Below are positions 19,462-36,514 of a stretch of 64,000 nt of DNA, piece by piece. Each line of letters begins with the position of its first letter. The stretch's first letter is position 1. Position numbers and translations under genes: made by a program. This stretch comes from Alphaproteobacteria bacterium (GTDB taxonomy: Bacteria; Pseudomonadota; Alphaproteobacteria; MPNO01; UBA830). Where the stretch lies: NCBI GenBank assembly GCA_965243135.1, contig OZ251539.1, positions 2,689,812 to 2,753,811 on the forward strand, written 5' to 3'. The notes under the pieces are model-generated. The model worked only from the letters and a program-made list of their open reading frames with translations. It made no database searches and was not told the DNA's origin.

Positions 19462-19617
19462 GGACGCCTCCCCGGCGGGCAGTATTGCGGTTTCCGGATA
19501 TTCGTTCATATATGCGGGCGTGTCGAGGGCGAGGCCGGCCGCGGAAACCCGGCGGCGCGCGGGGCGCCGGCTCCGTTCGCTGGACTTCGCCCGCCGCCCC
19601 GCCATATTGCGCACGCC

Positions 19618-20454: not shown

Positions 20455-20456
20455 TC

Positions 20457-21707: not shown

Positions 21708-22639
21708 GCGACCGGCAGAAGGGAAGATGGTTCTCCCGTCTCCGCGACGGGTTGCGGCGCTCGTCGTCCCGGCTGTCCGACGGCATCGGCGCCATTTTCG
21801 CCGGGGGCAGGCTCGACGCCTCGACGCTGGAGGAACTGGAAGAGTTGTTGATCGCATCCGATCTCGGCGTCGCGACCGCGGCCAGGCTTTCGGCGTCGTT
21901 GGCGAAAACGCGCTTCGACGGGGAGGTTTCCGCGGACGAGGTCCGCGAGGCGATGGCGGACGAAATCGCCCGGATCCTCGAGCCGGTCGCCGTGCCGCTG
22001 GCGGCCGACCCCGCTCATCGGCCGCACGTCGTTCTCGTCGCGGGGGTGAACGGTTCGGGCAAGACGACCACCATCGGCAAGCTCGGGAAGCGTTTCGCGG
22101 AAGAGGGCAAGTCGGTCATGTTCGCGGCCGGCGACACGTTCCGGGCAGCCGCGATCGAACAGCTCCGGATCTGGGGCGAGCGGGCGGGCGCCCCGGTCGT
22201 CGCGAGAGATCCCGGGTCCGACGCGGCGAGTCTCGCCTTCGAGGCGGTGGACGCCGCCCGCGAGGCGGGGAGCGACGTATTGATCGTCGATACCGCGGGC
22301 CGGCTGCAGAACCGCGACGACCTTATGCAGCAGTTGCGGAAGATGGTGCGCGTGATCCGGAAGCAGGACGCGACGGCGCCCCACGATTGTCTGCTGGTGC
22401 TCGACGCCACGGTCGGACAGAACGCGCATTCGCAGGTGGAGACCTTCCGCGCTATGTGCGATCTAACGGGTCTCGTGGTGACCAAGCTGGACGGTTCCGC
22501 ACGGGGGGGCGCGCTCGTGGCTTTGGCGGAGAAGTTCGGCCTGCCCGTCCACGCCGTCGGGGTGGGCGAAGGGGAGGACGATCTCCGGCCGTTCGAGGCC
22601 CGGGCGTTCGCGCGCAGCCTGATGGGAATCGCGGACTGA
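21704..22639 (+). CDS. ftsY: signal recognition particle receptor FtsY
   Basis: The ATG overlaps the mtaB stop (ATGA). Motifs GVNGSGKTTTIGKL, DTAGRL and TKLDGSARGG. Confidence 0.92.
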   Translation: MSDRQKGRWFSRLRDGLRRSSSRLSDGIGAIFAGGRLDASTLEELEELLIASDLGVATAARLSASLAKTRFDGEVSADEVREAMADEIARILEPVAVPLAADPAHRPHVVLVAGVNGSGKTTTIGKLGKRFAEEGKSVMFAAGDTFRAAAIEQLRIWGERAGAPVVARDPGSDAASLAFEAVDAAREAGSDVLIVDTAGRLQNRDDLMQQLRKMVRVIRKQDATAPHDCLLVLDATVGQNAHSQVETFRAMCDLTGLVVTKLDGSARGGALVALAEKFGLPVHAVGVGEGEDDLRPFEARAFARSLMGIAD

Positions 22640-23086
22640 CGGCGTTCGGGGAGCGGCAAGAATTCGCGCCCTCGCAGTCGAACGGTCGACAAGTATTTGA
22701 TGGGAGACGACCAAGGACGTATGAATGCGAAGCGCTCCGGGCATACGGTTCATGGACATGAGGGCCAAGCCGTGGTGTCTGGCGCGCAAGGGAGGCGGGC
22801 ACCACGGTGCGGTCGGTCGGCGACAATGAGGCGGACAATGAGCGGTTCGTCATGCGGACAATGATCGCTTGCCTTAAGGCTAGCGTTACCTATAGGAAGT
22901 TCGACCGGGATGCGAACAATAGAAGGTGCCGCTACGCGCCCGGCGAGAAGCTCGCTTTGACATACGAGCCGTATTCAGTACGCTTGCGCTGCGTGTTGGC
23001 AGCGCTTCGCCTTCCGTCGACCGAAGCGCGGGCGACCCGGTCAATCGTCACGCACGGCTTCGGCATTGTGCGAAGAGGGCTCTAAC

Positions 23087-23779
23087 ATGCGGATCGAGCC
23101 GGAGATCGATGGGATTAATATCGTTTTGGTCGGCGATTTCAATCCGACTGTGTTCACGCCGGCGTGGTTCGCGCTGCATGAATTCCTGCCGAAGCCCGCC
23201 GCGGACGGCGCAAAGGTGGATACCATCCATCCGCAGTTAACGGTTTTTTCCTTCGATTGGCTCCGCTTGCAGGTCGGAACGGATCGCTTTGTCGCTGAAA
23301 CCGTGCAGGCACCCTATATTCGTGTATGCGACTTCGTCGGGCGCGTATTTACGGAACGCCCGGGTCAATCGTCGCTCAGGGCACTCGGAATCAACCGCGG
23401 CGTTCATTTTCGGGTGCGGGATCGCGCCGATATGGATCGCATCGGCAGAACTCTGGCGCCGGTGAAACCTTGGGGCTCTTGGGGACGAGGTCTCGAACCC
23501 GGCGGCGGGCATGGCGGCATGGCATCGCTTACAATGTCGCAAGTCAAAATCGAAGGAAGGCCATCCGACGACCGGATCAACGTTAGAGTGGAACCGTCTG
23601 ATCTAATTACTGGTCAAGGACGCGCCGGGATTCGCGTGCATGTCAACGATCATTATACAACGAGCGATACGGGTCCTGGAGCCAGTGAACGTTTGTTGAC
23701 AATTATCAAGAGCGGTTTCGATGGCTCCTTGGCGCAAAGCGGCGAAATCGTCGATCATGTCATGTCCTTGGCAGAATGA
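23087..23779 (+). CDS. hypothetical protein (230 aa), first gene of a 3-gene cassette
   Basis: ATG at 23087 (MRIEPEIDGINIVLVGDFNPTVFTPAWF...). Composition is ordinary. It ends 15 nt before the next ORF. No family confidently recognised. Confidence 0.5.
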   Translation: MRIEPEIDGINIVLVGDFNPTVFTPAWFALHEFLPKPAADGAKVDTIHPQLTVFSFDWLRLQVGTDRFVAETVQAPYIRVCDFVGRVFTERPGQSSLRALGINRGVHFRVRDRADMDRIGRTLAPVKPWGSWGRGLEPGGGHGGMASLTMSQVKIEGRPSDDRINVRVEPSDLITGQGRAGIRVHVNDHYTTSDTGPGASERLLTIIKSGFDGSLAQSGEIVDHVMSLAE

Positions 23780-23794
23780 CAGGAAATCCGGTCG

Positions 23795-24394
23795 ATGCAT
23801 CAGGCAGATCTCTCCACCGCAATGTCGCAAGCCAATAGGTCCGAGACGCGCGATAGTTTCGACTCGGAAATCGCGCATGAGGATATCGTTCGGCGTGCGG
23901 TGGCAAGGTTCGATCTCGAGTTCAGGCGCGGGATCGACGCTACCCAGGGAACCAGCACGCACCAGGCCAACGCGAGTTCCCGATCGCCTGTTACCGACCG
24001 TAGGCAGGTCGACCTTTCCCGAATCGTGGATTTGCCGAGATTGCCGGTTCGGCGAATGCCCGCGACGCGGTTTCATGCCCTGCAGGAGTGGGAGGGCTAT
24101 GTCGTCGAGATCGGCGGCAAGGAATTCACGGCGCGGCTGACCGACATCACGGCCGGAGCGTCGTATGAGCAGGAAGAAGCGATTATCCCCCTTTCGGAGG
24201 TCTCGGACGGCGATGCCGAGAAGATGCGCGAGGGGAGCGTCTTCCGCTGGGTGATCGGTTACGAACGCTCTGCCTCCGGAACCAAGAAGCGCGTTTCCCA
24301 GATCGTGTTTCGCGACCTTCCGGCGATCACCGAGGCCGACCTGCGAGCCGGCAAAGCGTGGGCACGGGAGACGATGCGGTCGTTCGGGTTGTGA
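23795..24394 (+). CDS. hypothetical protein (199 aa), second gene of cassette
   Basis: ORF with AGGAAA upstream. The C-terminal half (WEGYVVEIGGKEFTARLTDITAG...VFRWVIGYERS) looks globular. Its stop overlaps the GTG of the next gene (GTGA). Confidence 0.45.
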   Translation: MHQADLSTAMSQANRSETRDSFDSEIAHEDIVRRAVARFDLEFRRGIDATQGTSTHQANASSRSPVTDRRQVDLSRIVDLPRLPVRRMPATRFHALQEWEGYVVEIGGKEFTARLTDITAGASYEQEEAIIPLSEVSDGDAEKMREGSVFRWVIGYERSASGTKKRVSQIVFRDLPAITEADLRAGKAWARETMRSFGL

Positions 24395-25466
24395 CGGCGG
24401 CGGAAACGCTTCCGGGACATGACGAGATCGAACTTGCGCTTTTCGGCCCGGGGTACGGCGAGAGCGTCGTCATGCATATCGGCGACGGTGAATGGGTGGT
24501 CGTCGACTCCCGCATCGACAAGGACGGCAGACCGAACGCTCTGACCTATCTGGAGAACCTCGGCCTCGATCCGGCCGAAGTTGTCGTTCTGATCGTGGCG
24601 ACTCACTGGCACGACGACCATATCCGCGGGATGGAGCGCGTGGTCGAGGCACAGGGCCCGCTTTTGTTGCTCGGCTGCGCTAGGTCTCCAGGAATTTCTT
24701 TCCATTGTCGGCGCTCTCGAAGACCGCAGCTTTTCCGGTTTCGGTTCCGGGGTTCGGGAACTTCACGGCGTCTTCACCCGACTTCGCGGAGCGGCGTCGA
24801 GGCCGACGTTCGCCCTCGCCAACCAACGCGTTCCCATGCGCAACGAGTGCGAGATCTGGTCCCTCTCGCCCGACAGCGGAGTCTTCCAGAATTTCCTGAA
24901 ATCTATCGACGGTCTCGTGCCCGGCACCGGTCAAACCAAGGCTCGACTTCCCGGCCCGACGCCCAACGAGGCGGCGGTCGCGCTCTGGGTCGAGGTCCAA
25001 GACATCGCGGTATTGCTTGGGGCGGACTTGGAGAAGTCGGGCTGGACAGTCATTTTGCGAAGCAAGGAGCGTCCTGTCGGCAAGGCGTCGGCGTTCAAGG
25101 TCCCGCATCACGGATCCGCGAACGCCGACGAACGGGAGGTATGGACGCGAATGTTGGAGTCGGCTCCCTTCGCCGTGCTTGCGCCTTGGCGCAGAGGCGG
25201 CCATGCCCTTCCGGGCGAGAACGACGCGCAGCGCATTCTTTCGCGCACAGGGAATGCCTACGCGACCGCGAAAGACAGCCGACGTGCGCCCAGGCGCCGG
25301 GAAAGAATGGTCGAGCGGAGCATCCGGGAGTCCGGCCTCCAACTTCGAGAGCTGGCGATGTCCCCCGGCTGGCTTAGGTTACGGCGGCCGCTCCACCCAA
25401 AGGCGCAATGGTACAGTCGAGAAGTTTGGGACCGCGTGCCATCTCAAGGACTTCGCTGCGCCGTAG
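24391..25466 (+). pseudogene. MBL-fold metallo-hydrolase (ComEC-type beta-lactamase domain) with two apparent frameshifts
   Basis: The HxHxDH motif (THWHDDH) is in frame 1 (track ORF 24358..25377). The continuation FCCSAALGLQEFLS...KVPHHGSANAD is in frame 2 (open upstream of track ORF 24836..25801), with the shift near 24650-24661. A natural-looking end, TVEKFGTACHLKDFAAP-stop, is in frame 0 at 25466, with that shift near 25400. Confidence 0.6.
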
Positions 25467-25844
25467 CCGACCGCGACGGCGGGCGTCCGACAAAGCCCGC
25501 GCAAGTCGGCCCGATCAAGCGCGGCCGCCGATCGTCGAACCCGAGTCCGAAAGCGCGAGGAGACTTCATTTCCGGCGACCATCGCACTTCCGAAGGAGCG
25601 CGGCGGCCGTTGACGCCCTCGCGGGCGGGTGCTGTCCTCGCAGCTGTCTACGGACGCGGAGGTTTCCGTTCGCGCTCTGGCTTCATGGGGAGCCCGCGGG
25701 TAATCAACGGAGAAGCGAAGTCGCGAAACAAGACCGGCAAAATCATCGGCCGCGCCCACGATTGCGGCGATTGCAAACGGTTTGCGCTTTCGCCGATATA
25801 GGGCGGCTCGACGCCGCTGTCATCACGAACAACGGAAACGCGAA

Positions 25845-26888
25845 ATGACCGAATCCAGACGATCTTTTCTCGGCAGCGGCGTTGCCGCGGCGCTGGGAGC
25901 CTCCGCGTTGGCCGCGTCGGCGGCGCATGGCCGCCCGACGATTCGCTGGCGCCTTCAGACCTATGCGAATCCGGCCCTTGCGGAACATGTCGTCAAGCCC
26001 GCGGTGGACGCTTTCAACCGGGCCGCCAACGGCGAAATGGAGATCGAGCTCTTTTTCGCCGACCAGCTCGCGCCCGCAAGCGAGCTTTTCGAGGCGTTGC
26101 GGAACGGCACGGTCGACATCGCGCAATCCGACGACGATTCGATCGCCGCTCCGACCGACGTATCCGTGTTCGGAGGCTATTTTCCGCTTGCCCTGCGATA
26201 CAGCCTCGACGTGCCCGTCCTGTTCAGCCGCTACGGGCTCGGCGAAATCTGGGATGCCGCCTACGCTGAAGTCGGCGGCGTCAAATGGCTGTCGGCGGGC
26301 GCGTGGGACCCGTGCCATTTCGCGACAAGGAAACCGATCCGGCGGCTGGCCGATCTGGAGGGCAAACGCATTTTCACCTTTCCGACCGCCGGACGCTTTC
26401 TCCGGAGATTCGGGGTAGTCCCCGTCACGCTGCCATGGGACGAAGTGGGATCGGCGATGCGGAACGGGGCGCTCGACGGCATCGCGTGGTCGGGAATCAC
26501 GGAGAACTACACGGTCGGCTGGGCGGACGTGACCGAATACTTCCTCACGAACAACATCTCGGGGGCCTGGATCGGCCATTTTTTCGCGAACGAGGATCGC
26601 TGGAACGCCCTTCCTGAGCACCTCAAAACGTTGTGGCGTCTGGCGATGGATTCGTCCCATTATTACCGTCAGCACTGGTACTGGGGCGGCGAGGCCGATC
26701 TCAGGACTCGGGGATCCAGAATGCAACTCACCTCCATTCCGGCCGAGGAATGGGCCACGGTCGAAGCCGAGGCCGACCGGTTCTGGGACGAGATTGCGGC
26801 AGTCAGTCCGCGTGCGAGGCAAGTGGTCGAGATTTTCCGGCAATACAACGCCATCATGGCGAAAGCGGGCCAACCTTACCGCTGTTAG
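25845..26888 (+). CDS. TRAP-type substrate-binding protein with Tat-like signal; orphan (no adjacent permeases)
   Basis: MTESRRSFLGSGVAAALGASALAASAAHG twin-arginine signal followed by a DctP-like body. It is the tail of track ORF 25782..26888. Confidence 0.8.
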   Translation: MTESRRSFLGSGVAAALGASALAASAAHGRPTIRWRLQTYANPALAEHVVKPAVDAFNRAANGEMEIELFFADQLAPASELFEALRNGTVDIAQSDDDSIAAPTDVSVFGGYFPLALRYSLDVPVLFSRYGLGEIWDAAYAEVGGVKWLSAGAWDPCHFATRKPIRRLADLEGKRIFTFPTAGRFLRRFGVVPVTLPWDEVGSAMRNGALDGIAWSGITENYTVGWADVTEYFLTNNISGAWIGHFFANEDRWNALPEHLKTLWRLAMDSSHYYRQHWYWGGEADLRTRGSRMQLTSIPAEEWATVEAEADRFWDEIAAVSPRARQVVEIFRQYNAIMAKAGQPYRC

Positions 26889-27334
26889 TTCGGCGGCTTT
26901 TTCCGCTCTTGTGCCGGCTCGCCGCGCTTCTGCCCGGCGCGCCGAGGAAAGGAGAAAACTGATCGTATGCGCCAACTCTTTGTCCGTCGCGCAGCCGACT
27001 TCGAGTCGGGGCTGCCCGCCTGCGAGGTTGGCGAGATCCTGCCGGCCCCTGCCGCCCGGCTGCGTTCTCCTTGCGGCGAATTGACTCGCCAGCCCCCCAA
27101 CGGCGGAAACTGCCGGTCGTCTGCGTTGCGCTTCCGACCTCGTAGGGGGTATATGATCGCCAAGATTTTCGTAGACCTTTCCGGGAGCTTCGGTACTGTC
27201 TGGCTCGGGAAAATTTTCTCGCTTCGCGGCAGTTCGTCCATTGGCGATGACGCCTCCTCTGCGGCTACCCGCGAATGCTGTCCGTCTTGGCGGGAATTGA
27301 CGTAATCTTGGCGCATGCGCTTGAGGAAGAGGCC

Positions 27335-30300
27335 ATGGAACCGCCTCCACGGGCAGTTTACGACGACCCTGCACGCCACTGGGACTTCTTGACCCGGCCC
27401 TCGGACGACGACTTCGAAGGTCAGCACTTCGACCGCAAGGAGGCTGGCCAAAGGACGAGCGAAGCTCGGAGACTCGAAAAGCAACTGAAACGACTCCGGG
27501 ATGGTATCGCCGAAACGGTTTCCGCCTTCGCCAACAGCAATGTCGAGGGCGGCCTCCTCGTGATCGGAATCGCTTCCAACGGCGCCGTCGAAGGCGTCAA
27601 CCATCTGACGGAGCGGCAGAAGAACAGCCTCACCGACATTGGGAGCCTGCTCCACTTTCAGGCGGCCGAAGCGAAGCTTCACGTATGCACGGACTCAGCT
27701 GGCCAAAGCAACGCCATCTGTCTGATCTATACCCCCTATGCGGACAGCGGCATCTGCGAAACGCCGGGATCTGCACCGAAAGCGTGGGAGCGACGCGGCC
27801 CCCAGAACGTGCCCGTTACGCTGGAGATGCGAGAGCGGCTCAGAGACAGGAAAAATCTTTCGAATTTCGAAAATGCGTTCTGTTGCCCCTATGACCCAAC
27901 CGATCTCTCGAATGACGTTCTTGCGGAGTTCCGCAAGGTGTTTCTCCCGGAAGCGGTTAAGGACTTCTCGGACGAACGGCTGCTTTATGAGGCGGGGGCG
28001 CTGATCCGCAGGGATGGAGAATACTGGTTTACGAATGCCGGGCTTCTGTTCTTCGGATCGAATCCGCAACGGGTGCTTCCTGCATCGCACGTCCGCTTGT
28101 TGCGATTCGGAGCGATCTCTGGGGATTTCGCTAAGCGCGGGCTGCCTACATTCGACCAGAAGTTTACGGGCCCGGTAACGAAGCAGATCCGCGAAGCGAG
28201 GACGTTCTTCAGAGAATCCGCGTTCTTCAAGCGATATCAAAAGCGTCGGGAGGCAGGCGGCTTCGCCGAGGAACCCGAGTTTCCGCCCACCGTCATCGAC
28301 GAGGCCATAGTGAACGCCGTGGCGCATCGGGACTATCGGACCGCCATACCGATCGAATGCGAAGCCTACGCGGATGCCTTCGTCGTCAAGAACCCAGGCC
28401 GGATGACGCAACGTGACGCCGATCTTCCATCCCGTTTCTCGTTGGCGGATGTCGTGCTCGACTCGATGCCTAGGAATCCCAAGATTTTGGAGTGGTTGAA
28501 GCTGATGCGGGATCCCCGCGGCGCAGCGTACGTACAAGCCATCAGCGAAGGCACGAAGCAGATGGTCACGGCCATGGAAGATCTCGGATTGCCCGCTCCT
28601 TCATTCCGCCTGGCCTCGAACGAGACATTGATCAAGATCGAAAGCAAAGCTGAAGAACGCGAAGCCGCTATCCTGGCCGCGAACGAAGACAAGCCAACGG
28701 AATTCTGCAATCTGTTTCTCCTGAGGTTTCGACAGCAAGGAAATCCGGTCGGGTACGATGCCTTCGGCTCGCGGTATGGAGAGATCGTCAAGACGCTGCG
28801 CGACGCTCTCAAGGGAAACGGATGGCATATCGACAGGGATGGATTCAGCAGGATATTGGCGCATAGAAAAGGCATGGAGCTTGAAGCGCCGGAAGACGTG
28901 AGATCCATTTTGCGTTTCTATCCAGCGTACGAATTCCAGATTCGAGAGTATCATCGGCGCTATTATTTGTGCATCGACTATAAATGCTTGGCTCTCAACG
29001 TAAGGAAGCTCTCCGTTGCGAGACAACGACTCGCCCGAACCGATCTGGAAGGCCGACGTTGCATCGCGGAGAAGCACGGATGGAGGGAAGGCCGTCTGTC
29101 TGAATTCGGCGACGAATTCGCGCAAGTCCGGTTCTTTGATACCGAAACGGAAGAGTCCGTTTCCGTCGATAAAGTTATTCCCAATGTCTCCAATGCGATG
29201 TTGGAAACCATGCTGAAGAAGGAAGGATCCTCGTTCGATTTCTCTGCTGCGCTCCGAAAGCACAGTTTGGTCACGAGGTCGAACGCCGCGAAGGAACGGG
29301 CGGAGAGAACGCTGACTATGGCGAATCATATTGCGGATACGGTGTTTCCATTGCGACATTGCGACCTCGACATAGACGTCGTTTCCGATCCGGTTCGACT
29401 TTCTGAACGAAAAGGATCTTCGAAAGGCGAAATGTTCGTTCGACGCTTGCCGGAGCCGGAGGCGGAGTTTCGGCAACGCGAGCTGTCGCGAGATATCCGG
29501 ACCGGAATCACGAAGTACGGTGCATATGACGATCAACCGCAGCGGATCGAGCTGATTCCCGTTTGCACGAATTCGATGCGAAAGGGAATGGAAAAATTGA
29601 TCGGTCGCTTGGTAGGGGGACGGCATAGATACCGTGGATCCGAACGCACTTTTGCGGCGGAGTTCTCGTATTCGACGATCGTCTCCGTGGATCGCGTCGA
29701 AAATATCCGGGGAGAAATCGAACGTCTGCTGGACCGGCGGCCAAAAGGCCACGCCGACGCACGGTCCCTCTTTCTCGTTTACGCTCCGGAAGAGGGCTAT
29801 TCACGCGATGACCATACGGCGCCATATTTCGCCAACAAGAGACTGTTGCTGGAAAGAGGCGCGCCCTGTCAGATGGTTGATACGCCGACACTTGAGAACG
29901 CCGATTGGAAGGACCTGAATCTGGCCTTGAACATCTGCGCCAAATGCGGCGTTCGACCCTGGGTCTTGCCCGATAGAATCCCGGAAGCGGATTTTTTCGT
30001 GGGACTGTCCTATACGCAATCCGAAGACGGTCGGCGAATCATGGGTTTTTCCAACGTATTCAACAGCTACGGCAGGTGGGAGTTCTATCGCGGAAATGCC
30101 TCGTATTTTGATTTCGAGGATCGAAGCGTTCGGCTTGCCGGTTTGATTGAATCAACGTTAGAAAGACTCGAATCCCGACTGTCTTCGACTCCTCGTGTGG
30201 TGTTCCAATACTCCGCAAGGCTTTCGCGGCTTGACCGGATGGCGATTCTCAGGGCAGCCCGCAAGATTCGTCCGGAAGGAATTTATTCTTTCGTCTGGAT

Positions 30301-30697
30301 TAACTCCCATCACAATATACGATTCTATGACAGTCGTCCAGACACGGACGGAAGTCTTCGCCGGGGCAGCTACGTTGAGGCGGGCGCGAATAAGATATAC
30401 CTGTCGACAACCGGTTACAATCCGTATCGCCGGGCCATGGGAACGCCGAAACCGCTAGAAGTCTCTGCTTTTGTCGACCGACCGGACAGCGACGGCCACC
30501 AACCTGATCTTCGGATATTGGCCTTGCAGGTTTTGAGTCTCACTAAGCTGAATTGGGCTTCCACGGATGCGTTTTGCGGGGAGCCGATCACGCTCAAGTA
30601 CGCCAGAGACATAGCCTATTTGACGGCCGCTTTCCTGCGCCAATCGGAGCCGTTCAACCTTCATCCTTCTCTGGAGACGACGCCATGGTTCATTTAG
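27335..30697 (+). CDS. Schlafen/AlbA_2 + HATPase_c_4 module fused to a long-type, catalytically inactive prokaryotic Argonaute (MID-PIWI)
   Basis: Track ORF 27275..30697. The likely start is the ATG at 27335 after GAGGAAGAGG. ORF residue numbering is used below.
- AlbA_2: FEGQHFDRKEAG...VSAFANSNVEGGLLVIGIASNGAVEGV (res ~45-185).
- HATPase_c_4: IDEAIVNAVAHRDYRT...VVKNPG...PRNPKILEWL...SEGTKQM (res ~335-447).
- Ago N/L1/PAZ-like/L2 region: res ~478-745.
- MID pocket residues: Y851..K855 (YFANK), Q866 (CQMV), K890 (NICAKCGVRPWVL).
- PIWI: FFVGLSYTQ, VVFQYSARL, PITLKYARDIAYL. Confidence 0.8.
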   Translation: MEPPPRAVYDDPARHWDFLTRPSDDDFEGQHFDRKEAGQRTSEARRLEKQLKRLRDGIAETVSAFANSNVEGGLLVIGIASNGAVEGVNHLTERQKNSLTDIGSLLHFQAAEAKLHVCTDSAGQSNAICLIYTPYADSGICETPGSAPKAWERRGPQNVPVTLEMRERLRDRKNLSNFENAFCCPYDPTDLSNDVLAEFRKVFLPEAVKDFSDERLLYEAGALIRRDGEYWFTNAGLLFFGSNPQRVLPASHVRLLRFGAISGDFAKRGLPTFDQKFTGPVTKQIREARTFFRESAFFKRYQKRREAGGFAEEPEFPPTVIDEAIVNAVAHRDYRTAIPIECEAYADAFVVKNPGRMTQRDADLPSRFSLADVVLDSMPRNPKILEWLKLMRDPRGAAYVQAISEGTKQMVTAMEDLGLPAPSFRLASNETLIKIESKAEEREAAILAANEDKPTEFCNLFLLRFRQQGNPVGYDAFGSRYGEIVKTLRDALKGNGWHIDRDGFSRILAHRKGMELEAPEDVRSILRFYPAYEFQIREYHRRYYLCIDYKCLALNVRKLSVARQRLARTDLEGRRCIAEKHGWREGRLSEFGDEFAQVRFFDTETEESVSVDKVIPNVSNAMLETMLKKEGSSFDFSAALRKHSLVTRSNAAKERAERTLTMANHIADTVFPLRHCDLDIDVVSDPVRLSERKGSSKGEMFVRRLPEPEAEFRQRELSRDIRTGITKYGAYDDQPQRIELIPVCTNSMRKGMEKLIGRLVGGRHRYRGSERTFAAEFSYSTIVSVDRVENIRGEIERLLDRRPKGHADARSLFLVYAPEEGYSRDDHTAPYFANKRLLLERGAPCQMVDTPTLENADWKDLNLALNICAKCGVRPWVLPDRIPEADFFVGLSYTQSEDGRRIMGFSNVFNSYGRWEFYRGNASYFDFEDRSVRLAGLIESTLERLESRLSSTPRVVFQYSARLSRLDRMAILRAARKIRPEGIYSFVWINSHHNIRFYDSRPDTDGSLRRGSYVEAGANKIYLSTTGYNPYRRAMGTPKPLEVSAFVDRPDSDGHQPDLRILALQVLSLTKLNWASTDAFCGEPITLKYARDIAYLTAAFLRQSEPFNLHPSLETTPWFI

Positions 30698-30949: not shown

Positions 30950-31657
30950 CTACGCGCCGCTCCCTATGGCGACCGCGTTCTTGTGAACGTCGTCGTACAT
31001 CAGATGCTGGATTTCGAGCATCTGGCGAACGGTCTTGAGCACGAGCGTGCGCTCGTCCTCCGTGCGAGCGAACTGGTCGAGAAGCTTTCGGCCGACATCG
31101 GAATGCTCTTCGTCCGCACTGTCGTGGATCACCCAGTAGGCGACCTCTTCGTCGCTCAAACCGAACTGTTCCTGGAGATTGCGAGCGATCTTGACGTACA
31201 GTCCGGGTATCGCCGCCTCGCCCGCCAGCATGTGCGCGGCGACGCCTTCCAGGAAGCTTTTCGAGCAGATTTGGGTGAAATAAGCCTGAAACGCCACTAC
31301 GCCGGCGCAATACGGGGGATCGTACATTTGTTCCGGCGTCAGCCCCATGCCCCTCGCGTAATCGAGATAGAGCCGGTGGTGCGAGACTCCGTTTGACATC
31401 AGGCGCCCGGTCGCCTCTTCGAAGGCCACTTCGGCGATCAACTCGCGCCAAGCCGGATCGGGACAGATCACGTAGAGATTGCCGTGATAGTTGTGATTGT
31501 GGAGCGGTATGCCGCCATGCTGCTGACAGATGTAGCGCGACTGCTCCAGATTCCACCTGCCCTCGACCATGCCGGTCCAGAGCGGATGTCCATACATCGG
31601 CAGTTCCCCGTGGATTTCCGAAATCCGATCGAGCACGCCCTGCGTCGTCAATGTCAT
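30950..31657 (-). CDS. heme-oxygenase-like (TenA/PqqC-type) iron-containing redox enzyme family protein
   Basis: Start MTLTTQGVLDRISE at 31657 after AGGAGA. An all-helical protein of 235 aa with spaced H/E/D residues (HNHNYHG, AFEEATG, HMLAGEAA, DSADEEH). Family call is from memory. Confidence 0.65.
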   Translation of the reverse strand: MTLTTQGVLDRISEIHGELPMYGHPLWTGMVEGRWNLEQSRYICQQHGGIPLHNHNYHGNLYVICPDPAWRELIAEVAFEEATGRLMSNGVSHHRLYLDYARGMGLTPEQMYDPPYCAGVVAFQAYFTQICSKSFLEGVAAHMLAGEAAIPGLYVKIARNLQEQFGLSDEEVAYWVIHDSADEEHSDVGRKLLDQFARTEDERTLVLKTVRQMLEIQHLMYDDVHKNAVAIGSGA

Positions 31658-32401
31658 CGTGCGTCTCCTGGCAGACCGAAAGCGCATTGAACATATCCTT
31701 CGGCCGCAAACCGGTCGAGCGCCCGGCGTGGCAGCGCCGCCTTGCATGGGTTGCAGGCGTCAGGATCGGACGCGGTCCTTGTTCCGACGCCGGAGTCGCG
31801 TCTTCCGCAGAGCATAGTCCGCACGGCTGCGGAGCGGAAACAAATCGCGATCCTGAAGCTCGGCGTGGAAAACTGTCGACGGTCGGCACGGCTGGATCAA
31901 TTGCGCTTTGGTCCCTTGCGTCTCTTCGGGACACCATCCTCCGGCAGACCGGTTCTTGCCGCTTCTCCACCTCGCGAAGCGCACTCTCCGGTGCCAGGCG
32001 AAGCTTCTCGACCTTCGGAAGTCTCCGGAGCGCCGCTGTCGGCGCCCTCCCCGACCGGCGTCGTCTCGGGCGTCGCAGGCTGAATGTGCGGCCGCCATGG
32101 CGGCCGCGAGAAAAAGGCGTCCGGAAGAGCGATTCGCTAAACCCTGTTCACGCTCCGCGAGCGAACGGCCTACGCCGGGTCCTCTGGTTTCCGTCTTTGA
32201 AACGCGCTCGACTTGAACTTCTTGAATCGCAGGTCCATCGCCTCGTCCGAACGAGCTGGCGGCCCGCAAGACGCGGCGGATCTCTCGATGCGAACGCTTT
32301 TTCAGAAAAGACGGAAAACGCGATCTCGTCGCAAGTCAATCGATCACGCGGAAATCGTCGAAAACCATGAAGCCATGCAAAAGTAAACGCCGTTGGGAGG
32401 A

Positions 32402-33253
32402 TCAAAGGCTGCGGGCGTGGACGCGCTTCAGGAAGTCGATCACCTGGCCGTTGAAACGGTCCGCGTGTTCGATGTTCGGGCAGTGTCCGCAGTTTTCGTA
32501 GACATGATGCTCGTTGTCGGGGATGCGCTCGGCCAGTTCGTGGGAATAGCCCTGACTGCGCAACGGATCGTTGGCGCCGGCGACGATCAGAACCGGTACC
32601 GCGACGTTCTCGTAGACCGTGTCGTCCGGCACGCCGAAACCCTGTTTCGCGCCTTCGTTCCGCTCCTGGCGCTTGAGACGCGGCGCGGACGCGCATTCCC
32701 AGGCGCCCGGCAGCAGCGCCATTTCCTGGCGCTTCGCCACGTACGCGTCGTCGTCGCCCCATTTGGGGTCGTCGAGCATGGCGTGAAGGAGTGCCCGCAT
32801 CGCTTCCGCGGTTCCGTCGTACGCGAGCAACGTCTTCCGCTCCTCCGTCAGCGGCGTGAACCCGCCGCCCGAACACAGCACGGCCGACCGCACCGGCAAA
32901 ATCGGCGGCGGGTCGGCGATGATCCGCGCAAGATTGGATCCGCCCATGGAATTTCCCACGAAATCCGCCTCGGAGATCCCGAGCTCCTCGAAGAAACGTT
33001 GCATGTGGCGGTATACGCGCCCGCGCGGGTCGGCGAAATCGAACACCTTGTCCGTGCGCCCGAACCCGAGCCAGTCCGGCGCGACGACGTGGAAATGCTC
33101 GGCGAGCGCCGGGACGGCGAACTCCCAGCTGATTTCGGCGCAGCCGCCGAATTCGCCGGAATGCAGCAAGGCCACCGTCGGCGCGCCGGGGTCGCCCGCC
33201 TCCAGATAGTGAGTGTTGACGCCGTCGACGGCGACGTATTTCGATTCGATCAT
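32402..33253 (-). CDS. alpha/beta hydrolase (meta-cleavage-product hydrolase-like)
   Basis: MIESKYVAVDGVNTHYLEAGD...LLHSGEFGG...FVGNSMGG...CGHCPNIE. Confidence 0.8.
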   Translation of the reverse strand: MIESKYVAVDGVNTHYLEAGDPGAPTVALLHSGEFGGCAEISWEFAVPALAEHFHVVAPDWLGFGRTDKVFDFADPRGRVYRHMQRFFEELGISEADFVGNSMGGSNLARIIADPPPILPVRSAVLCSGGGFTPLTEERKTLLAYDGTAEAMRALLHAMLDDPKWGDDDAYVAKRQEMALLPGAWECASAPRLKRQERNEGAKQGFGVPDDTVYENVAVPVLIVAGANDPLRSQGYSHELAERIPDNEHHVYENCGHCPNIEHADRFNGQVIDFLKRVHARSL

Positions 33254-33272
33254 CTCCGGCTCTCCCGACGGT

Positions 33273-34502
33273 TCAGCGCACGAAATCGACGGCGAGGCCG
33301 TCCGCATGATCGGGCGGCGACTCGCGCTTTTCCGCCGTCTCCTCGGGACTCCACGCATCCGCGAGTTCGCGGAGGCGCGGGTACACCTCGCGTTCGTAGA
33401 GCGTCATCGACCGCAGGACTCTTTCGGTCGAAAGGTGGCCGGCTTGTCCCATCATCAGCATGTGGCCGAAACCGCCGGAATGCTCCCAGAACGACCTGAT
33501 CTGCCGGTACACCTGGTCGGGCGTTCCCGCGAAGACGTTGCCGCGGCGCATGTGCTCCCCGAGATCGGCGCTGTAGGCGGCGCCGGTTCCGGATACGTGG
33601 GCGCCGCGCATGATGTTGGCGGCGAGCTTCGGCGGGTGGTAGCCGGGAGGGTTCCTCCAAGGCTCCGAGACCTTGTTGGCCTGCATGTACCACATCAAAT
33701 GGTTGGCTCCGTCCTCGGCTTCGCGTTCGCTGTCGCCGACATAGACGAGCGCGCAATAGGCCAGCCGGTCGAGCGGCGCGTGTTCGCGATGATGCCTGAG
33801 GTAATTCGCGCGGTAGGCGTCGAAAATCGGACGGATTCGCGAATAGCCGGCAAGAAAGACGGCGCCGACATGCCCGTGCCGGGCCACGGGATCGGTGCTG
33901 GCGGCGCTGCCCATCGTGATCCATACGGGAGGATGCGGCTGCTGCCACGGGCGCGGCCAGACGTTCACCTGGCGGTGACTGTACCACCTGCCCTCGAAAC
34001 TGAACGGACCGTCATGCGTGGTCCACGCCTTCAGGATCAGGTCGTGCGCTTCCCACAGCCGTTCCGACCCCCGGTACGGAAGGACGTTGGCGGCGGCCGC
34101 CTCGTAGGGCACGCTGCGGACGAAGCCGCATTCGAGCCGCCCCTTGGAGATGACGTCGATCATCGCCATTTCTTCCGCGACGCGGACCGGCTGGTTGCGA
34201 TTGGGCAGGGGGTTGCCGAGGATCAGGAGCCGGGAGCGGCCGGTCTGCCGCGCGAGGATGCCGAGCATTATGGGCGCGGCCGGAACCATGCAGGTCGCCG
34301 TCTGGTGATGTTCGTTCACCATGATCTCCAGCCCCAGCTCGTCGGCGGCGCACCAGAGGTCGAGATATTCGTTGTAAAGACGGCTGGCATTCTGCGGGTC
34401 GCAGAGCGCGTTGGGCAAATCGACCCGGATCGAAGCGTAGGAATCGGGATCCGGCAGGTCGGGATAGCAGTCCTCCGTGAAGAACCAGGTCTTGAGGCTC
34501 AT
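33273..34502 (-). CDS. LLM-class flavin-dependent oxidoreductase (luciferase-like monooxygenase), paralog 1
   Basis: Full 409-aa ORF. It aligns by eye along its full length with the 34521..35750 product (shared blocks NEHHQTATCMVPAAPIMLGILARQT, RLECGFVRSVPYEAAAAN, VNVWPRPWQQPHPP). Confidence 0.85.
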   Translation of the reverse strand: MSLKTWFFTEDCYPDLPDPDSYASIRVDLPNALCDPQNASRLYNEYLDLWCAADELGLEIMVNEHHQTATCMVPAAPIMLGILARQTGRSRLLILGNPLPNRNQPVRVAEEMAMIDVISKGRLECGFVRSVPYEAAAANVLPYRGSERLWEAHDLILKAWTTHDGPFSFEGRWYSHRQVNVWPRPWQQPHPPVWITMGSAASTDPVARHGHVGAVFLAGYSRIRPIFDAYRANYLRHHREHAPLDRLAYCALVYVGDSEREAEDGANHLMWYMQANKVSEPWRNPPGYHPPKLAANIMRGAHVSGTGAAYSADLGEHMRRGNVFAGTPDQVYRQIRSFWEHSGGFGHMLMMGQAGHLSTERVLRSMTLYEREVYPRLRELADAWSPEETAEKRESPPDHADGLAVDFVR

Positions 34503-34520: not shown

Positions 34521-35750
34521 TCAGCGAACGAATTCGACGCCGAAGGTGCCGAGGTCAGCGCTCTGCCTTGCCGGCATCGCCGCGCTGCGTTCGGCGACTT
34601 CGGCGGGGTCGCTGGTCGCGGTCAACTCGCGGAGGCGAGGATACACTTCGTTACTGTACAGCTTCATCGACTTCAGCGCATCGTCGTCGGAGAGGAAGCC
34701 TGCCTGGCCCATGAGCATCATGTGTCCGAAGCCGCCGGAATACTCCCAGAACGCCTTGATCTGCTCGTAGACTTGATCCGGGGTGCCGGCGAACACGTTG
34801 CCGCGGGCCATCTGCTGTTCGAGCGTCGGATTGACCGGCACGCCCGAGCCGGTGACGCCGCGCATGACCGCGGCGGAAACGGCTGGGGGGTGATAGCCGG
34901 GCGGATTGCTCCATTCCGGCGGCACTTTGTTGGCCTCCATGTACCAAAGCAGTTTGCGCGCGCCGTCTTCCGCCTCGCGTTCGTTCTCTCCGACGTAGCA
35001 CAGCGCCAGATAAGCGAGGCGGTCGAACGGAGCCTGGCCGCCGTGAGCGCGCGACCAGGCGTCGCGATAACCGCCGAATATCTCCCTGATCTTGGGATAG
35101 CCGGCGAGAAAGACGGCGCCGACGTGACGATGCTCGGCGACCGGCACCGCCGTGCGGGCGCTTCCCATGGTGATCCAGATCGGCGGATGCGGCTGCTGCC
35201 ACGGGCGCGGCCATACGTTGACTTGGCGGTGATGGTACCAGCGTCCCTCGAAGTTGAACGGACCGTCATGGGTGGTCCACGCCTTGACGATCAGGTCATG
35301 CGCTTCCCAGAGCCGTTCCGTACCCTTGTACGGCAGGATGTTCGCGGCGGCGGCCTCGTACGGGACGCTGCGCACGAAACCGCATTCCAGGCGGCCTTTC
35401 GAAATCACGTCGACCATCGCCATTTCCTCCGCGACGCGAACCGGCTGGTTGCGGTTGGGCAGAGGGTTGCCGAGAATCAGCAGGCGCGCCCGGCTGGTCT
35501 GGCGGGCGAGTATTCCGAGCATGATAGGGGCCGCCGGAACCATGCAGGTCGCCGTCTGGTGATGCTCGTTGAGCATGATCTCGAGGCCGATCTCGTCGCA
35601 GGCGCACCAGAGGTCGAGGTAGCGGTTGTAGAGCTCGCTCGCCTTCCGCGGGTCGCAATGAACGTTCGGCAGATCGACGCGGATCGACCGGTAGGCGCTC
35701 TGATCCGGCAGATAGGGATAGCAGTCCTCGGTGAACCACCACGATTTCAT
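34521..35750 (-). CDS. LLM-class flavin-dependent oxidoreductase, paralog 2
   Basis: Start MKSWWFTEDCYPYL at 35750, overlapping the stop of the upstream hydrolase gene (ATGA). 409 aa, a close paralog of 33273..34502. Confidence 0.85.
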   Translation of the reverse strand: MKSWWFTEDCYPYLPDQSAYRSIRVDLPNVHCDPRKASELYNRYLDLWCACDEIGLEIMLNEHHQTATCMVPAAPIMLGILARQTSRARLLILGNPLPNRNQPVRVAEEMAMVDVISKGRLECGFVRSVPYEAAAANILPYKGTERLWEAHDLIVKAWTTHDGPFNFEGRWYHHRQVNVWPRPWQQPHPPIWITMGSARTAVPVAEHRHVGAVFLAGYPKIREIFGGYRDAWSRAHGGQAPFDRLAYLALCYVGENEREAEDGARKLLWYMEANKVPPEWSNPPGYHPPAVSAAVMRGVTGSGVPVNPTLEQQMARGNVFAGTPDQVYEQIKAFWEYSGGFGHMMLMGQAGFLSDDDALKSMKLYSNEVYPRLRELTATSDPAEVAERSAAMPARQSADLGTFGVEFVR

Positions 35751-36514
35751 GGCCCCGGCCCTTCGGTCGCGAACGCCAGCACGGCATCGACGAACGCGCC
35801 GGGGCGCTCCATCTGGGGCGCATGGCCGGCATTTTCGATCACCGTCAGGCCGGCACCGTCGATCATCTTCGAGAACGCGCGCCCGTAGTCGACGGACACG
35901 ATGCCGTCGCTGGCCCCCCATATGAAATGAGTCGGAATGTCGATGCGATGCAGCCGCTGCGGCAGCTTCGGGTTGTGCATGTACGGATCCCACGTGTACA
36001 CGCCGAGCGCCGTGCGGTTGGCCGCGATCTCCTCGACCCGCTCGTCCGGCAGCCGCGCGAGGTCGGGGGCCAGCGACGCGTCGTGAAACATGAGCTCCGC
36101 CAGCTTTTCGGCCGGCGCCGCGAAGACGTCCGCGATGTCGCGGACGTCGCGACCGGAGACCTTGACGCCGACGGAATCGACCAGAATCAGTTTCGAGAGG
36201 CGTTCCGTCGTCATTACGGCGAGTTCGAGAGCGATCCAGCCGCCCATGGAAAAGCCCATCAGGACGGCGTCCCTCAGATCGAGTTCCTCCAGCAGGTCGA
36301 GATAGAGAAACGCCAGATCGTCGATGCAGTCGAACTGGTCCGGAATCCGGCTGCCCGCGAAGCCGGGATGGGTGGGAGCGACAATCTCGAATTTTTCGGC
36401 AAGCCGGTCGGCGAACGGCATGTCGGCGATCGGTCCGCCGCCTCCGTGCAGCGCGACCAGGGGCCGACCCGAGCCCTTGCGCGCAACCTCCACGTCGAGT
36501 CCCTGCAGTCTCAT
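35747..36514 (-). CDS. alpha/beta hydrolase
   Basis: MRLQGLDVEVARKGSGRPLVALHGGGG...GFSMGGW...NAGHAPQMERP. It is the tail of track ORF 35747..36583. Confidence 0.8.
   Translation of the reverse strand: MRLQGLDVEVARKGSGRPLVALHGGGGPIADMPFADRLAEKFEIVAPTHPGFAGSRIPDQFDCIDDLAFLYLDLLEELDLRDAVLMGFSMGGWIALELAVMTTERLSKLILVDSVGVKVSGRDVRDIADVFAAPAEKLAELMFHDASLAPDLARLPDERVEEIAANRTALGVYTWDPYMHNPKLPQRLHRIDIPTHFIWGASDGIVSVDYGRAFSKMIDGAGLTVIENAGHAPQMERPGAFVDAVLAFATEGPGP

What the first reader, a model, noticed from the sequence alone, without database searches (positions are those of the whole stretch)
27335..30697. Single-polypeptide Schlafen/AlbA_2-HATPase_c_4::long pAgo fusion with dead PIWI but intact MID pocket
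One 1120-aa ORF joins two modules. Residues are numbered on the track ORF.

- **N-terminal module.** A COG2865-type module. It contains an AlbA_2/Schlafen-like domain (VSAFANSNVEGGLLVIGIASNGAVEGV) and HATPase_c_4 (EAIVNAVAHRDYRT..VVKNPG..PRNPKILEWL..SEGTKQM).
- **C-terminal module.** About 660 aa with Argonaute organisation: an N/L1/PAZ-like/L2 region (about res 478-745), MID, and PIWI.
- **MID pocket.** The four 5'-end-binding residues are present in canonical spacing (Y851-x3-K855, Q866, K890 in NICAKCGVRPWVL).
- **PIWI catalytic sites.** The DEDX positions appear replaced: GLSY instead of G.D., QYSAR instead of .RDG., and KYARD instead of YA[HD].

The nuclease activity is therefore presumably lost. 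The fused Schlafen-type ATPase/RNase-like module is the obvious candidate effector, by analogy with SIR2, TIR and nuclease partners of inactive pAgos.

No partner gene is adjacent, and the gene sits in an island that looks lower in GC. Schlafen-type domains have, as far as I recall, been listed among pAgo-associated domains in comparative surveys. I know of no characterised system with this fused architecture.
Basis: partly seen in the sequence, partly recalled or inferred. Interest (0 to 1): 0.85.

Follow-up and report, generated by a model that had tools for sequence, protein, structure and literature searches.

The report
Schlafen-Argonaute fusion defence gene (SLFN-pAgo)

Summary
Window 27335-30697 (+) is one intact 1120-aa ORF. 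It contains an N-terminal Schlafen/AlbA_2 domain, a GHKL ATPase (HATPase_c_4), and a long-B-type Argonaute core. The MID 5'-end pocket is intact (Y831, K835, Q846, K870). The PIWI domain lacks the catalytic aspartates (S892, S960, R1091).

The fusion is not an assembly artefact:
- More than 120 protein clusters and 68 genomic loci carry the same single ORF.
- dN/dS is 0.07-0.22 in every domain.
- No partner gene is conserved next to it.

The novelty claim fails. PADLOC-DB (2023) has a full-length model for this architecture (1584.6 bits). Ryazansky et al. 2018 listed Schlafen-fused long-B pAgos. A bioRxiv preprint of 30 May 2026 (Kuzmenko et al.) names the family SLFN-pAgo and characterises RzAgo of Runella zeae. 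In RzAgo, RNA guides with a 5'-A load the protein into inactive filaments. Complementary target DNA breaks up the filaments. ATP-driven tetramers then cleave tRNA and abort infection.

The window protein is 39-41% identical to RzAgo over its full length. It keeps every residue tested there except D72; the RzAgo D72A mutant protected better than wild type.

Verdict: already known, an uncharacterised orthologue. Interest is low.

The parts
27335..30697 (+). SLFN-pAgo gene, 1120 codons plus stop. It is a single ORF.
   Evidence: ORF and translation. PADLOC PDLC02394 matches full length at 1584.6 bits. 120 listed homologues are 52-100% identical, nearly all full length. dN/dS is 0.10-0.14 overall against L001, L002 and L003.
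27335..27844 (+). Schlafen/AlbA_2 nuclease domain, residues about 1-170. It carries E28-x4-D33-x-K35 and the SAFAN box S63-N67.
   Evidence: Pfam PF04326 E 2.3e-8. The model of residues 1-460 (pLDDT 82; 85-95 over the first 170 residues) matches SLFN13, SLFN14, SLFN11, SLFN12 and SLFN5 nuclease domains at E 4e-5 to 1e-3. In 68 members, E28 is kept in 61, D/E33 in 63 and K35 in 64. D33 aligns to RzAgo D32, the catalytic residue mutated in the preprint.
27845..28699 (+). Linker region plus GHKL (Bergerat-fold) ATPase, residues about 171-455. Pfam HATPase_c_4 covers 340-431. Key residues are E323-x3-N327, G355 and E405-G406-T407.
   Evidence: Pfam PF13749 at 25.4 bits against a cut-off of 26. E323, N327, G355, E405, G406 and T407 are invariant in 68/68. 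E323 and N327 align to RzAgo E314 and N318, which bind the ATP gamma-phosphate and Mg. Foldseek matches 3lmm (a COG2865-type AlbA_2 plus HATPase_c_4 protein) at E 1e-16. Matches to histidine-kinase CA and PDK domains are weak.
28700..29569 (+). Argonaute L1-PAZ-L2 region, residues about 456-745. A canonical N domain is probably absent. Boundaries are approximate.
   Evidence: The full model aligns over about 800 columns to RsAgo (TM 0.60 on the target). PADLOC pAgo_II model PDLC02379 matches residues 488-1119 to its positions 81-723 of 724. The global alignment to RzAgo (1111 aa) has 1088 aligned positions, so there is no room for an extra domain. RzAgo cryo-EM shows no N domain.
29570..29989 (+). 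MID domain, residues about 746-885. The 5'-end pocket is Y831, K835, Q846, K870.
   Evidence: phmmer and profile alignments to RsAgo and AaAgo. All four residues are invariant in 68/68. Y831 and K835 align to RzAgo Y828 and K832.
29990..30694 (+). PIWI domain without the catalytic tetrad, residues about 886-1120. The tetrad positions are S892, E928, S960 and R1091. Y1095 aligns to RzAgo Y1086, a contact for the 5'-adenine.
   Evidence: AaAgo alignment: D502 to S892, E541 to E928, D571 to S960, D683 to R1091. In the family these positions are S in 67/68, S/T/A, and mostly G/R/K. Model confidence is low for residues 890-927 and 1073-1107.
26879..27334 (+). Upstream intergenic region. A terminator-like hairpin sits at the end of the DctP gene, followed by about 440 bp that presumably hold the gene's own promoter and the RBS GAGGAAGAGG.
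   Evidence: Hairpin at 26879-26896 followed by a T run. Sequence. No sigma-70 consensus site was found here, so the promoter is inferred, not shown.

Best explanation
The gene encodes a member of the SLFN-pAgo family. This is a stand-alone, single-protein abortive-infection defence system, acquired by horizontal transfer.

**Proposed mechanism, by homology to RzAgo.**
1. The long-B Argonaute core loads small RNA guides of about 18-23 nt with a 5'-adenine into the MID pocket (Y831, K835, Q846, K870, with Y1095).
2. Guide-loaded protein polymerises head-to-tail into helical filaments. The filaments keep the Schlafen domains apart and inactive.
3. Pairing of the guide with complementary invader DNA straightens the duplex and breaks the filament.
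4. [quoted passage not shown]
5. The Schlafen nuclease (E28, D33, K35) cleaves tRNA. Translation stops and the infection aborts.

The PIWI domain does not cut anything.

**Shown here:** the architecture, the conservation of every functional residue named above, the folds, purifying selection, and the absence of a partner gene.

**Inferred from RzAgo (39-41% identity):** guide and target type, filament and tetramer states, tRNA as substrate, and anti-phage activity.
For: **Architecture and homology.**
- Full-length match to a dedicated PADLOC pAgo model.
- 39% to 41% identity over the whole length to the Runella zeae locus L079. The inferred RzAgo numbering reproduces all published residue types: D32, K34, E314, N318, Y828, Y1086.

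**Residue map.** RzAgo D32 aligns to D33, K34 to K35, E314 to E323, N318 to N327, Y828 to Y831, K832 to K835, and Y1086 to Y1095.

**Conservation.**
- GHKL and MID residues are invariant in 68/68.
- The PIWI aspartates are replaced in all 68.

**Folds.**
- The Argonaute core matches RsAgo by Foldseek at E 1.3e-27.
- The family profile matches the long-B EcAgo at E 1.5e-19 and RsAgo at E 1.6e-13.
- The N-terminal module matches 3lmm and the mammalian SLFN nuclease domains.

**Selection and context.**
- dN/dS is 0.07-0.22 in all five segments.
- No neighbour family recurs in more than 12 of 81 loci. The identified families that recur most often are type I R-M subunits and DNA methylases.
- Low GC and no homology in the flanks to any relative's locus indicate horizontal transfer.

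**Experimental basis for the mechanism.** bioRxiv 10.64898/2026.05.29.728809.
Against: - Nothing here tests function. Identity to the only characterised member is about 40%.
- The experimental source is a single, not yet peer-reviewed preprint.
- Two SLFN pocket residues differ from RzAgo. The window has E28 where RzAgo has H27. It has A80-S81-N82 where RzAgo has D72. The D72A mutant protects better than wild type, so regulation could differ.
- RzAgo's basic patch K46/K47 aligns to R55/D56.
- The gene sits among metabolic and housekeeping genes, not in a recognisable defence island.
- The AF2 model has low confidence in parts of PIWI.
- HATPase_c_4 scores 0.6 bits below Pfam's cut-off.
Confidence: 0.85

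Rival explanations
1. It has the SLFN-pAgo architecture but a different output or input. For example, it might use DNA guides or RNA targets, cleave rRNA or mRNA rather than tRNA, or be regulated without filaments.
For: Identity to RzAgo is only about 40%. The SLFN pocket differs: E28 against H27, and no counterpart of D72. The basic patch K46/K47 is not conserved. The PIWI sensor loop (RzAgo 891-903) is 3 residues shorter. Mammalian SLFNs differ in whether they cut tRNA or rRNA.
Against: The residues that read the 5'-adenine (Y831, Y1095) and the MID pocket are conserved, and the pocket is invariant across the family. The GHKL catalytic residues are invariant. The closest solved cores, RsAgo and EcAgo, are long-B pAgos. 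The RsAgo structures are complexes of guide RNA with target DNA.
Confidence: 0.1
2. It is a non-nuclease regulator. The AlbA_2/Schlafen module would act as a DNA-binding domain, as annotated in 2018 and by automated pipelines ('predicted HTH transcriptional regulator', 'putative DNA binding domain-containing protein'). The pAgo would tether it to nucleic acids for silencing without cleavage.
For: Source annotations. Ryazansky 2018 called the fused Schlafen domain DNA-binding. RsAgo represses plasmid expression without cutting (established knowledge, not tested here).
Against: The nuclease motif E-x4-D-x-K and the SAFAN box are conserved under purifying selection. The fold matches the SLFN nuclease lobes. 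RzAgo D32A loses both tRNA cleavage and defence.
Confidence: 0.03
3. It is a decaying or silent horizontally acquired gene with no current function in this genome, or a fusion produced by an assembly or frameshift artefact.
For: The gene has atypical GC and an isolated position among metabolic genes. No sigma-70-like promoter was found upstream. Some relatives are disrupted: an IS3-type insertion in L034 and frameshifts in L010, L055 and L073.
Against: The reading frame of 1120 codons is uninterrupted and all functional residues are intact. dN/dS is 0.07-0.22. The same single ORF occurs in 68 loci across many phyla. This excludes an artefactual fusion.
Confidence: 0.02

Closest known systems
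SLFN-pAgo family, type member RzAgo (Runella zeae, WP_028663822.1). Source: Kuzmenko et al., bioRxiv 10.64898/2026.05.29.728809, 30 May 2026.
   Same: - Same domain order: SLFN, GHKL ATPase, L1-PAZ-L2-MID-PIWI.
- Same length class: 1120 aa, within the published range of 1071-1187.
- 39-41% identity end to end.
- It keeps the SLFN catalytic D/K, the GHKL E-x3-N, the MID Y/K/Q/K pocket and both 5'-A-contacting tyrosines.
- The PIWI is dead and there is no conserved partner gene.
   Different: - E28 instead of H27. This is closer to the family and mammalian consensus.
- No acidic counterpart of D72.
- The K46/K47 patch is not conserved.
- The PIWI beta1-beta2 loop is shorter.
- The host is a high-GC genome (about 66% GC). 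The closest relatives are in Gammaproteobacteria MAGs rather than Bacteroidota.
- It is not in a defence island.
Long-B pAgos with separate effectors: RsAgo (5awh, 6d8p) and EcAgo of the E. coli BPAN system (23wq; PMC13535254, PMC10620215).
   Same: - These are the closest solved Argonaute cores by sequence profile (E 1.5e-19 and 1.6e-13) and by fold (E 1.3e-27).
- Both have an inactive PIWI and a YK-type MID pocket.
- Both are sensors that rely on another module as effector.
   Different: - Here the effector is fused N-terminally rather than encoded by a neighbouring gene.
- An N domain is probably missing.
- The Argonaute part is only about 19% identical to RsAgo.
COG2865-type 'Schlatpase' proteins (AlbA_2 plus HATPase_c_4), for example DIP2311 of Corynebacterium diphtheriae (3lmm).
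   Same: The N-terminal 450 residues match 3lmm over about 434 columns (Foldseek E 1e-16). The family profile hits 3lmm at E 1e-4.
   Different: Those proteins end in an HTH or nothing. Here the C-terminal partner is a complete Argonaute core.
Mammalian Schlafen tRNases/rRNases (SLFN11, SLFN13, SLFN14, SLFN12, SLFN5) and bacterial Schlafen defence proteins (Perez Taboada 2026; Cash, PMC13462974).
   Same: They share the nuclease-lobe fold, the E-x4-(D/E)-x-K motif and the SAFAN box. In each case a Schlafen RNase is used as an immune effector.
   Different: - This protein has only one lobe. In RzAgo the second lobe is supplied by dimerisation.
- The ATPase is GHKL, not an SF1 helicase.
- The sensor is a guide-loaded Argonaute, not an Ig-like or Csx15 domain.
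Short pAgo systems ([18 protein letters not shown]), including the SIR2-Schlafen-APAZ partners (og_40 of Ryazansky 2018).
   Same: They use the same logic: a dead pAgo sensor activates a toxic effector and causes abortive infection.
   Different: Those systems lack PAZ and need an APAZ partner. This protein has a PAZ-containing long core and no APAZ partner. Short pAgo structures score lower: profile E 1e-10 against 1.5e-19 for EcAgo and 1.6e-13 for RsAgo.

Membership tests
SLFN-pAgo (Kuzmenko et al. 2026) | N-terminal Schlafen/AlbA_2 domain (PF04326) with the E(x)4(D/E)xK nuclease motif and the SAFAN box | tested here: met
   PF04326 E 2.3e-8 over residues 28-160. E28-GQHF-D33-R-K35 and S63-A-F-A-N67 are in the sequence and conserved in 61-64 of 68 members. 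The fold matches SLFN13, SLFN11 and SLFN14.
SLFN-pAgo (Kuzmenko et al. 2026) | GHKL ATPase domain (PF13749) with the Mg/gamma-phosphate residues (RzAgo E314, N318) | tested here: met
   PF13749 scores 25.4 bits, 0.6 bits below the cut-off of 26. E323 and N327 align to E314 and N318 and are invariant in 68/68, as are G355 and E405-G406-T407. The fold matches 3lmm at E 1e-16 and histidine-kinase CA/PDK domains weakly.
SLFN-pAgo (Kuzmenko et al. 2026) | Extra-long single polypeptide (1071-1187 aa) with a C-terminal PAZ-MID-PIWI core | tested here: met
   1120 aa in one ORF. PADLOC PDLC02394 matches residues 3-1120 to model positions 2-1121. Foldseek aligns about 800 columns to RsAgo.
SLFN-pAgo (Kuzmenko et al. 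2026) | PIWI lacks the DEDX catalytic tetrad | tested here: met
   Aligned to AaAgo: D502 to S892, D571 to S960, D683 to R1091. Only the glutamate-finger position stays acidic (E928).
SLFN-pAgo (Kuzmenko et al. 2026) | [quoted passage not shown] | tested here: inconclusive
   Only about 290 residues lie between the GHKL and MID domains. The alignment to RzAgo is nearly gap-free (1088 of 1111 positions). PADLOC pAgo_II model positions 1-80 are unmatched. I made no residue-level structural superposition.
SLFN-pAgo (Kuzmenko et al. 2026) | Belongs to the monophyletic SLFN-pAgo group inside long-B pAgos | tested here: inconclusive
   Full-length homology to RzAgo (39-41%) and to 80 genomic loci. 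The best solved relatives are the long-B EcAgo and RsAgo. I built no MID-PIWI tree with long-A and short outgroups.
SLFN-pAgo (Kuzmenko et al. 2026) | RNA guide with 5'-A, DNA target, guide-induced filament, ATP-driven tetramer, target-activated tRNA cleavage, phage defence | not testable with these tools
   Only the residues involved could be checked: Y831, K835, Y1095, E323, N327 and D33 are all conserved.
SLFN-pAgo (Kuzmenko et al. 2026) | No obligatory partner gene (autonomous system) | tested here: met
   I clustered flanking ORFs within 6 kb of the gene across 81 loci. No family occurs in more than 12 loci. The identified families that recur most often are type I R-M subunits and DNA methylases. 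The window's neighbours are DctP, a CADD/haem-oxygenase-like enzyme, a hydrolase and monooxygenases.
Long-B pAgo | Long (PAZ-containing) pAgo with inactive PIWI and a guide 5'-end-binding MID motif | tested here: met
   MID Y831, K835, Q846 and K870 are invariant. The top structural and profile hits are RsAgo and EcAgo.
Short pAgo systems ([18 protein letters not shown]) | MID-PIWI only, with an APAZ-effector partner encoded in the same operon or fused | tested here: not met
   A region of about 290 aa (L1-PAZ-L2) precedes MID and aligns with full-length Agos. No adjacent partner gene exists. Short pAgo chains score lower than long-B chains.
Catalytically active long-A pAgo | Intact DEDX tetrad in PIWI | tested here: not met
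   S892, S960 and R1091 occupy the three D/H positions.

The most novel reading that the evidence does not exclude
This subclade is the window protein with its 63-81% identical relatives in Gammaproteobacteria, Longimicrobiales, Binatia and Planctomycetota MAGs. It might be a functionally distinct SLFN-pAgo variant. It has the canonical mammalian-type E-x4-D-x-K site but lacks the acidic residue equivalent to RzAgo D72. Loss of that residue increases protection in RzAgo. The window copy also sits outside any defence island. Such a variant might therefore be intrinsically more active or restrained differently, or it might use another substrate or guide source than RzAgo.
Probability: 0.12. Interest if true: 0.4.

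Novelty: already known. Interest (0 to 1): 0.22.

Why it matters
It matters little as a discovery. The architecture was catalogued in 2018, has had its own detection model in PADLOC-DB v2.0.0 (2023), and was dissected mechanistically in a May 2026 preprint.

It has modest value in three ways:
- **Independent confirmation of conservation.** In 68 genomic copies from many phyla, the family keeps the guide pocket and the ATPase residues invariant and never has PIWI aspartates.
- **A larger family than reported.** I found at least 120 protein clusters and 140 confirmed stretches in species-representative genomes. The preprint reports 78 proteins.
- **A high-GC orthologue for comparison.** Its Schlafen pocket differs from RzAgo at two positions. 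It could be used to test how general the filament-to-tetramer mechanism is.

Tried and rejected
- **Assembly or frameshift artefact: rejected.** The same single ORF is found in 68 loci.
- **Hidden partner gene or operon: none found.** I clustered flanking ORFs from 81 loci. No family occurs in more than 12 loci, and the window shares no flanking gene with any relative.
- **Integration scars: none convincing.** I looked for direct and inverted repeats around the gene. There are only short imperfect repeats inside the neighbouring genes, which I take as chance.
- **tRNA gene at the boundary: none.** The only tRNA is at 8751-8827.
- **Defence genes in the low-GC stretch 22.7-25.8 kb: none credible.** PADLOC gives only weak LmuA-model hits. 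These are explained by a metallo-beta-lactamase fold.
- **Source organism: not identified.** The protein is in NCBI and ENA on a 6.1-Mb contig, but it carries no name or accession. The exact-match contig look-up returned nothing. The window's own genome is not among the species representatives; the best hit there is 81% identical.
- **Solved RzAgo structure: none** in the PDB sequence copy or the PDB structure library searched.
- **Promoter: not found.** There is no sigma-70 consensus site upstream.
- **Deliberately not run.** I did not run the 1.84-billion-representative search or the metagenome scan, because the answer did not depend on them.

Full report

Yes. A single open reading frame runs from 27275 to 30697 on the + strand.
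- It is preceded by GAGGAAGAGG.
- DNA homology to the closest relative L001 begins there.
- The family consensus begins MxxPSPR there.

The product is 1120 aa. All residue numbers below use this 1120-aa numbering.

**2. Domains**

*N-terminal module*
- Pfam finds SLFN_AlbA_2 at residues 28-160 (E 2.3e-8, above the cut-off).
- Pfam finds HATPase_c_4 at 340-431 with 25.4 bits against a cut-off of 26.
- NCBIfam gives only a weak Argonaute hit.
- An AF2 model of residues 1-460 (pLDDT 82) matches these, in order:
  - 3lmm, a COG2865-type AlbA_2 plus HATPase_c_4 protein, at E 1e-16.
  - The nuclease domains of SLFN13, SLFN14, SLFN11, SLFN12 and SLFN5, at E 4e-5 to 1e-3.
  - Histidine-kinase CA and PDK/BCKDK domains, weakly.

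*Argonaute part*
- PADLOC-DB holds a 1121-position model called pAgo (PDLC02394). It matches residues 3-1120 with 1584.6 bits. Other pAgo models match the C-terminal 400-630 residues.
- Against PDB sequences, the protein alone hits RsAgo, a long-B pAgo, at E 1.3e-10 over residues 820-1119.
- A 32-sequence family profile hits EcAgo at E 1.5e-19 and RsAgo at E 1.6e-13. These rank ahead of long-A and short pAgos. EcAgo is the long-B pAgo of the E. coli BPAN system.
- An AF2 model of the whole protein has mean pLDDT 76, with low confidence in parts of PIWI. Foldseek gives RsAgo as best hit: E 1.3e-27, about 800 aligned columns, TM 0.60 on the target. Eukaryotic and long-A Agos follow.

**3. Functional residues**

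*MID and PIWI*

| Feature | Window residue(s) | Evidence |
|---|---|---|
| MID 5'-end pocket | Y831-x3-K835, Q846, K870 | Invariant in 68/68 genomic family members |
| PIWI first Asp (AaAgo D502) | S892 |; S in 67 of 68, A in RzAgo |
| PIWI glutamate finger (AaAgo E541) | E928 |, E541 located by my residue count; mostly acidic in the family |
| PIWI second Asp (AaAgo D571) | S960 |; S/T/A in the family |
| PIWI last D/H (AaAgo D683) | R1091 |; mostly G/R/K in the family |

With both metal-binding aspartates and the last D/H gone, PIWI cannot be a nuclease. The family never has aspartates at these positions.

*Schlafen and GHKL*
- The Schlafen motif E28-x4-D33-x-K35 and the SAFAN box (63-67) are present. 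They are kept in 61-64 of 68 members.
- The GHKL residues E323-x3-N327, G355 and E405-G406-T407 are invariant in 68/68.

**4. Is the fusion genuine and functional?**

- The protein search returned 461 hits. The 120 listed are 52-100% identical and nearly all are full length.
- A scan of one genome per species found 140 confirmed stretches. Eighty loci were kept, from Gammaproteobacteria, Acidobacteriota, Planctomycetota, Poribacteria, Cyanobacteria, Bacteroidota, Chloroflexota and others, plus one Nitrososphaera MAG.
- In 67 of these loci, plus the window (68 sequences in all), the gene is one ORF of 1050-1210 codons.
- A few copies are broken: L034 by an IS3-type insertion, and L010, L055 and L073 by frameshifts.
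- Against the three closest relatives, dN/dS is 0.07-0.22 in each of five segments: SLFN, GHKL, L1-PAZ-L2, MID and PIWI. All domains are therefore under purifying selection.

**5. Genomic context**

*Composition*
- The gene has GC 0.55-0.58 in a genome of about 0.66.
- Its GC3 is 0.64, against 0.69-0.86 for the neighbouring ORFs.

*Neighbours*

| Gene | Coordinates |
|---|---|
| Xanthine-dehydrogenase-type molybdoenzyme | 17149-19746 (-) |
| FtsY | 20486-22636 (+) |
| TRAP DctP | 25782-26885 (+) |
| CADD/haem-oxygenase-like enzyme | 30953-31747 (-) |
| Alpha/beta hydrolase | 32405-33358 (-) |
| Luciferase-like monooxygenase | 33276-34502 (-) |
| Luciferase-like monooxygenase | 34524-35993 (-) |

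*Transfer and partners*
- Homology to all 80 related loci is confined to the gene itself.
- No flanking protein is shared with any related locus, apart from one weak 26%-identity match between luciferase-like proteins.
- Across 81 loci, no flanking family occurs in more than 12. The identified families that recur most often are type I R-M subunits and DNA methylases.
- The gene therefore moves as a single-gene unit and needs no partner.
- In this genome it is not inside a recognisable defence island.
- I found no integration scars or adjacent tRNA.

**6. What is known**

- Ryazansky et al. 2018 already recorded long-B pAgos fused at the N terminus to a Schlafen/AlbA_2 domain. They called it DNA-binding.
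- PADLOC-DB v2.0.0 (2023) has a model of the full architecture.
- A bioRxiv preprint of 30 May 2026 (10.64898/2026.05.29.728809) defines this group as SLFN-pAgos. It reports 78 proteins of 1071-1187 aa in 16 phyla, within the long-B clade. They carry SLFN plus a GHKL ATPase (the 'Schlatpase' supradomain), have no PIWI tetrad and have no conserved partner.

The preprint reports the following for RzAgo of Runella zeae:
- It binds RNA guides of about 18-23 nt with a 5'-A and recognises ssDNA targets.
- It has no N domain. Guide loading makes helical filaments.
- Target DNA disassembles the filaments.
- The tetramer pairs SLFN domains into a mammalian-like nuclease. This cleaves tRNA only with guide, target and ATP together. 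D32A abolishes the cleavage.
- It protects Flavobacterium johnsoniae against jumbo phages. D32A and E314A severely diminish protection. D72A enhances it.

A search for the family's names found no other paper. Two 2026 papers on bacterial Schlafens do not treat this fusion.

**7. Relation of the window protein to RzAgo**

The Runella zeae locus was recovered as L079. Its product is 1111 aa from the ATG at 9998. With that start, the residue types at all published positions are reproduced. It is 39-41% identical to the window protein, with 1088 aligned positions.

| RzAgo | Window protein |
|---|---|
| D32 | D33 |
| K34 | K35 |
| E314 | E323 |
| N318 | N327 |
| Y828 | Y831 |
| K832 | K835 |
| Y1086 | Y1095 |

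Differences:
- RzAgo has H27 where the window protein and 61 of 68 members have E (E28).
- RzAgo D72 lies in a one-residue insertion unique to RzAgo among the 68. The window protein has A80-S81-N82 there.
- K46/K47 align to R55/D56.
- The PIWI beta1-beta2 loop is 3 residues shorter.

**8. Verdict**

It is a dead-PIWI long pAgo sensor fused to a Schlafen effector.

The most likely mechanism is the RzAgo mechanism, transferred by homology. Architecture, residues, folds and selection are shown here. Guides, targets, oligomeric switching, tRNA cleavage and defence are inferred.

The thing is already known. This copy is an uncharacterised orthologue with small differences in the active-site neighbourhood. 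Interest is low.

Noticed in passing
window 24358-25801 (+): A metallo-beta-lactamase-fold gene appears split over two reading frames. ORF 24358-25377 carries the N-terminal Lactamase_B motif region (PF00753, E 2e-6, residues 31-100). ORF 24836-25801 is in another frame and has gene-like GC3. It weakly matches the C-terminal part of the same PADLOC 'LmuA' model (positions 212-287 of 345) and the ComEC MBL region. This is probably a frameshifted pseudogene or a sequencing error.
   Followed up: partly
window about 22700-24700: This low-GC stretch (0.60-0.62) lies between ftsY and the MBL-like gene. Its ORFs (23066-23779 +, 23795-24394 +, 24259-24705 -) have no Pfam, NCBIfam or PADLOC match. It may be part of the same or another horizontally acquired patch.
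   Followed up: partly
L053 10001-11224 and L077 10001-11245 (Candidatus Poribacteria): A stand-alone SLFN_AlbA_2 plus HATPase_c_4 ('Schlatpase') gene lies directly upstream of a complete SLFN-pAgo gene. It matches window residues 3-432. Pfam was checked for L053 only. This echoes the module exchange in Poribacteria described in the preprint.
   Followed up: partly
L034 10252-11862 (Acidobacteriota MAG OZ246889.1): The SLFN-pAgo gene is interrupted after about residue 92 by a 1.6-kb insertion. The insertion encodes an IS3-type transposase (rve plus HTH_21). This is a naturally inactivated copy.
   Followed up: yes
L042, L045, L049, L056 (Nostocales): These family members are about 1190-1200 aa. 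Their N-terminal 230 residues or so do not match the window's SLFN domain by tblastn. In L042, the one checked, they still score as PF04326 (E 1e-9). This may be the second SLFN clade that the preprint says is shared with NACHT proteins.
   Followed up: partly
L010, L055, L073: The SLFN-pAgo reading frame is split by frameshifts in these MAG contigs. These are either pseudogenes or long-read assembly errors.
   Followed up: no
window 20486-22636 (+): FtsY has an unusually long N-terminal region of about 430 aa before the SRP54 N and G domains. A 697-aa ORF on the opposite strand (19764-21857) has no family match and is probably spurious.
   Followed up: no
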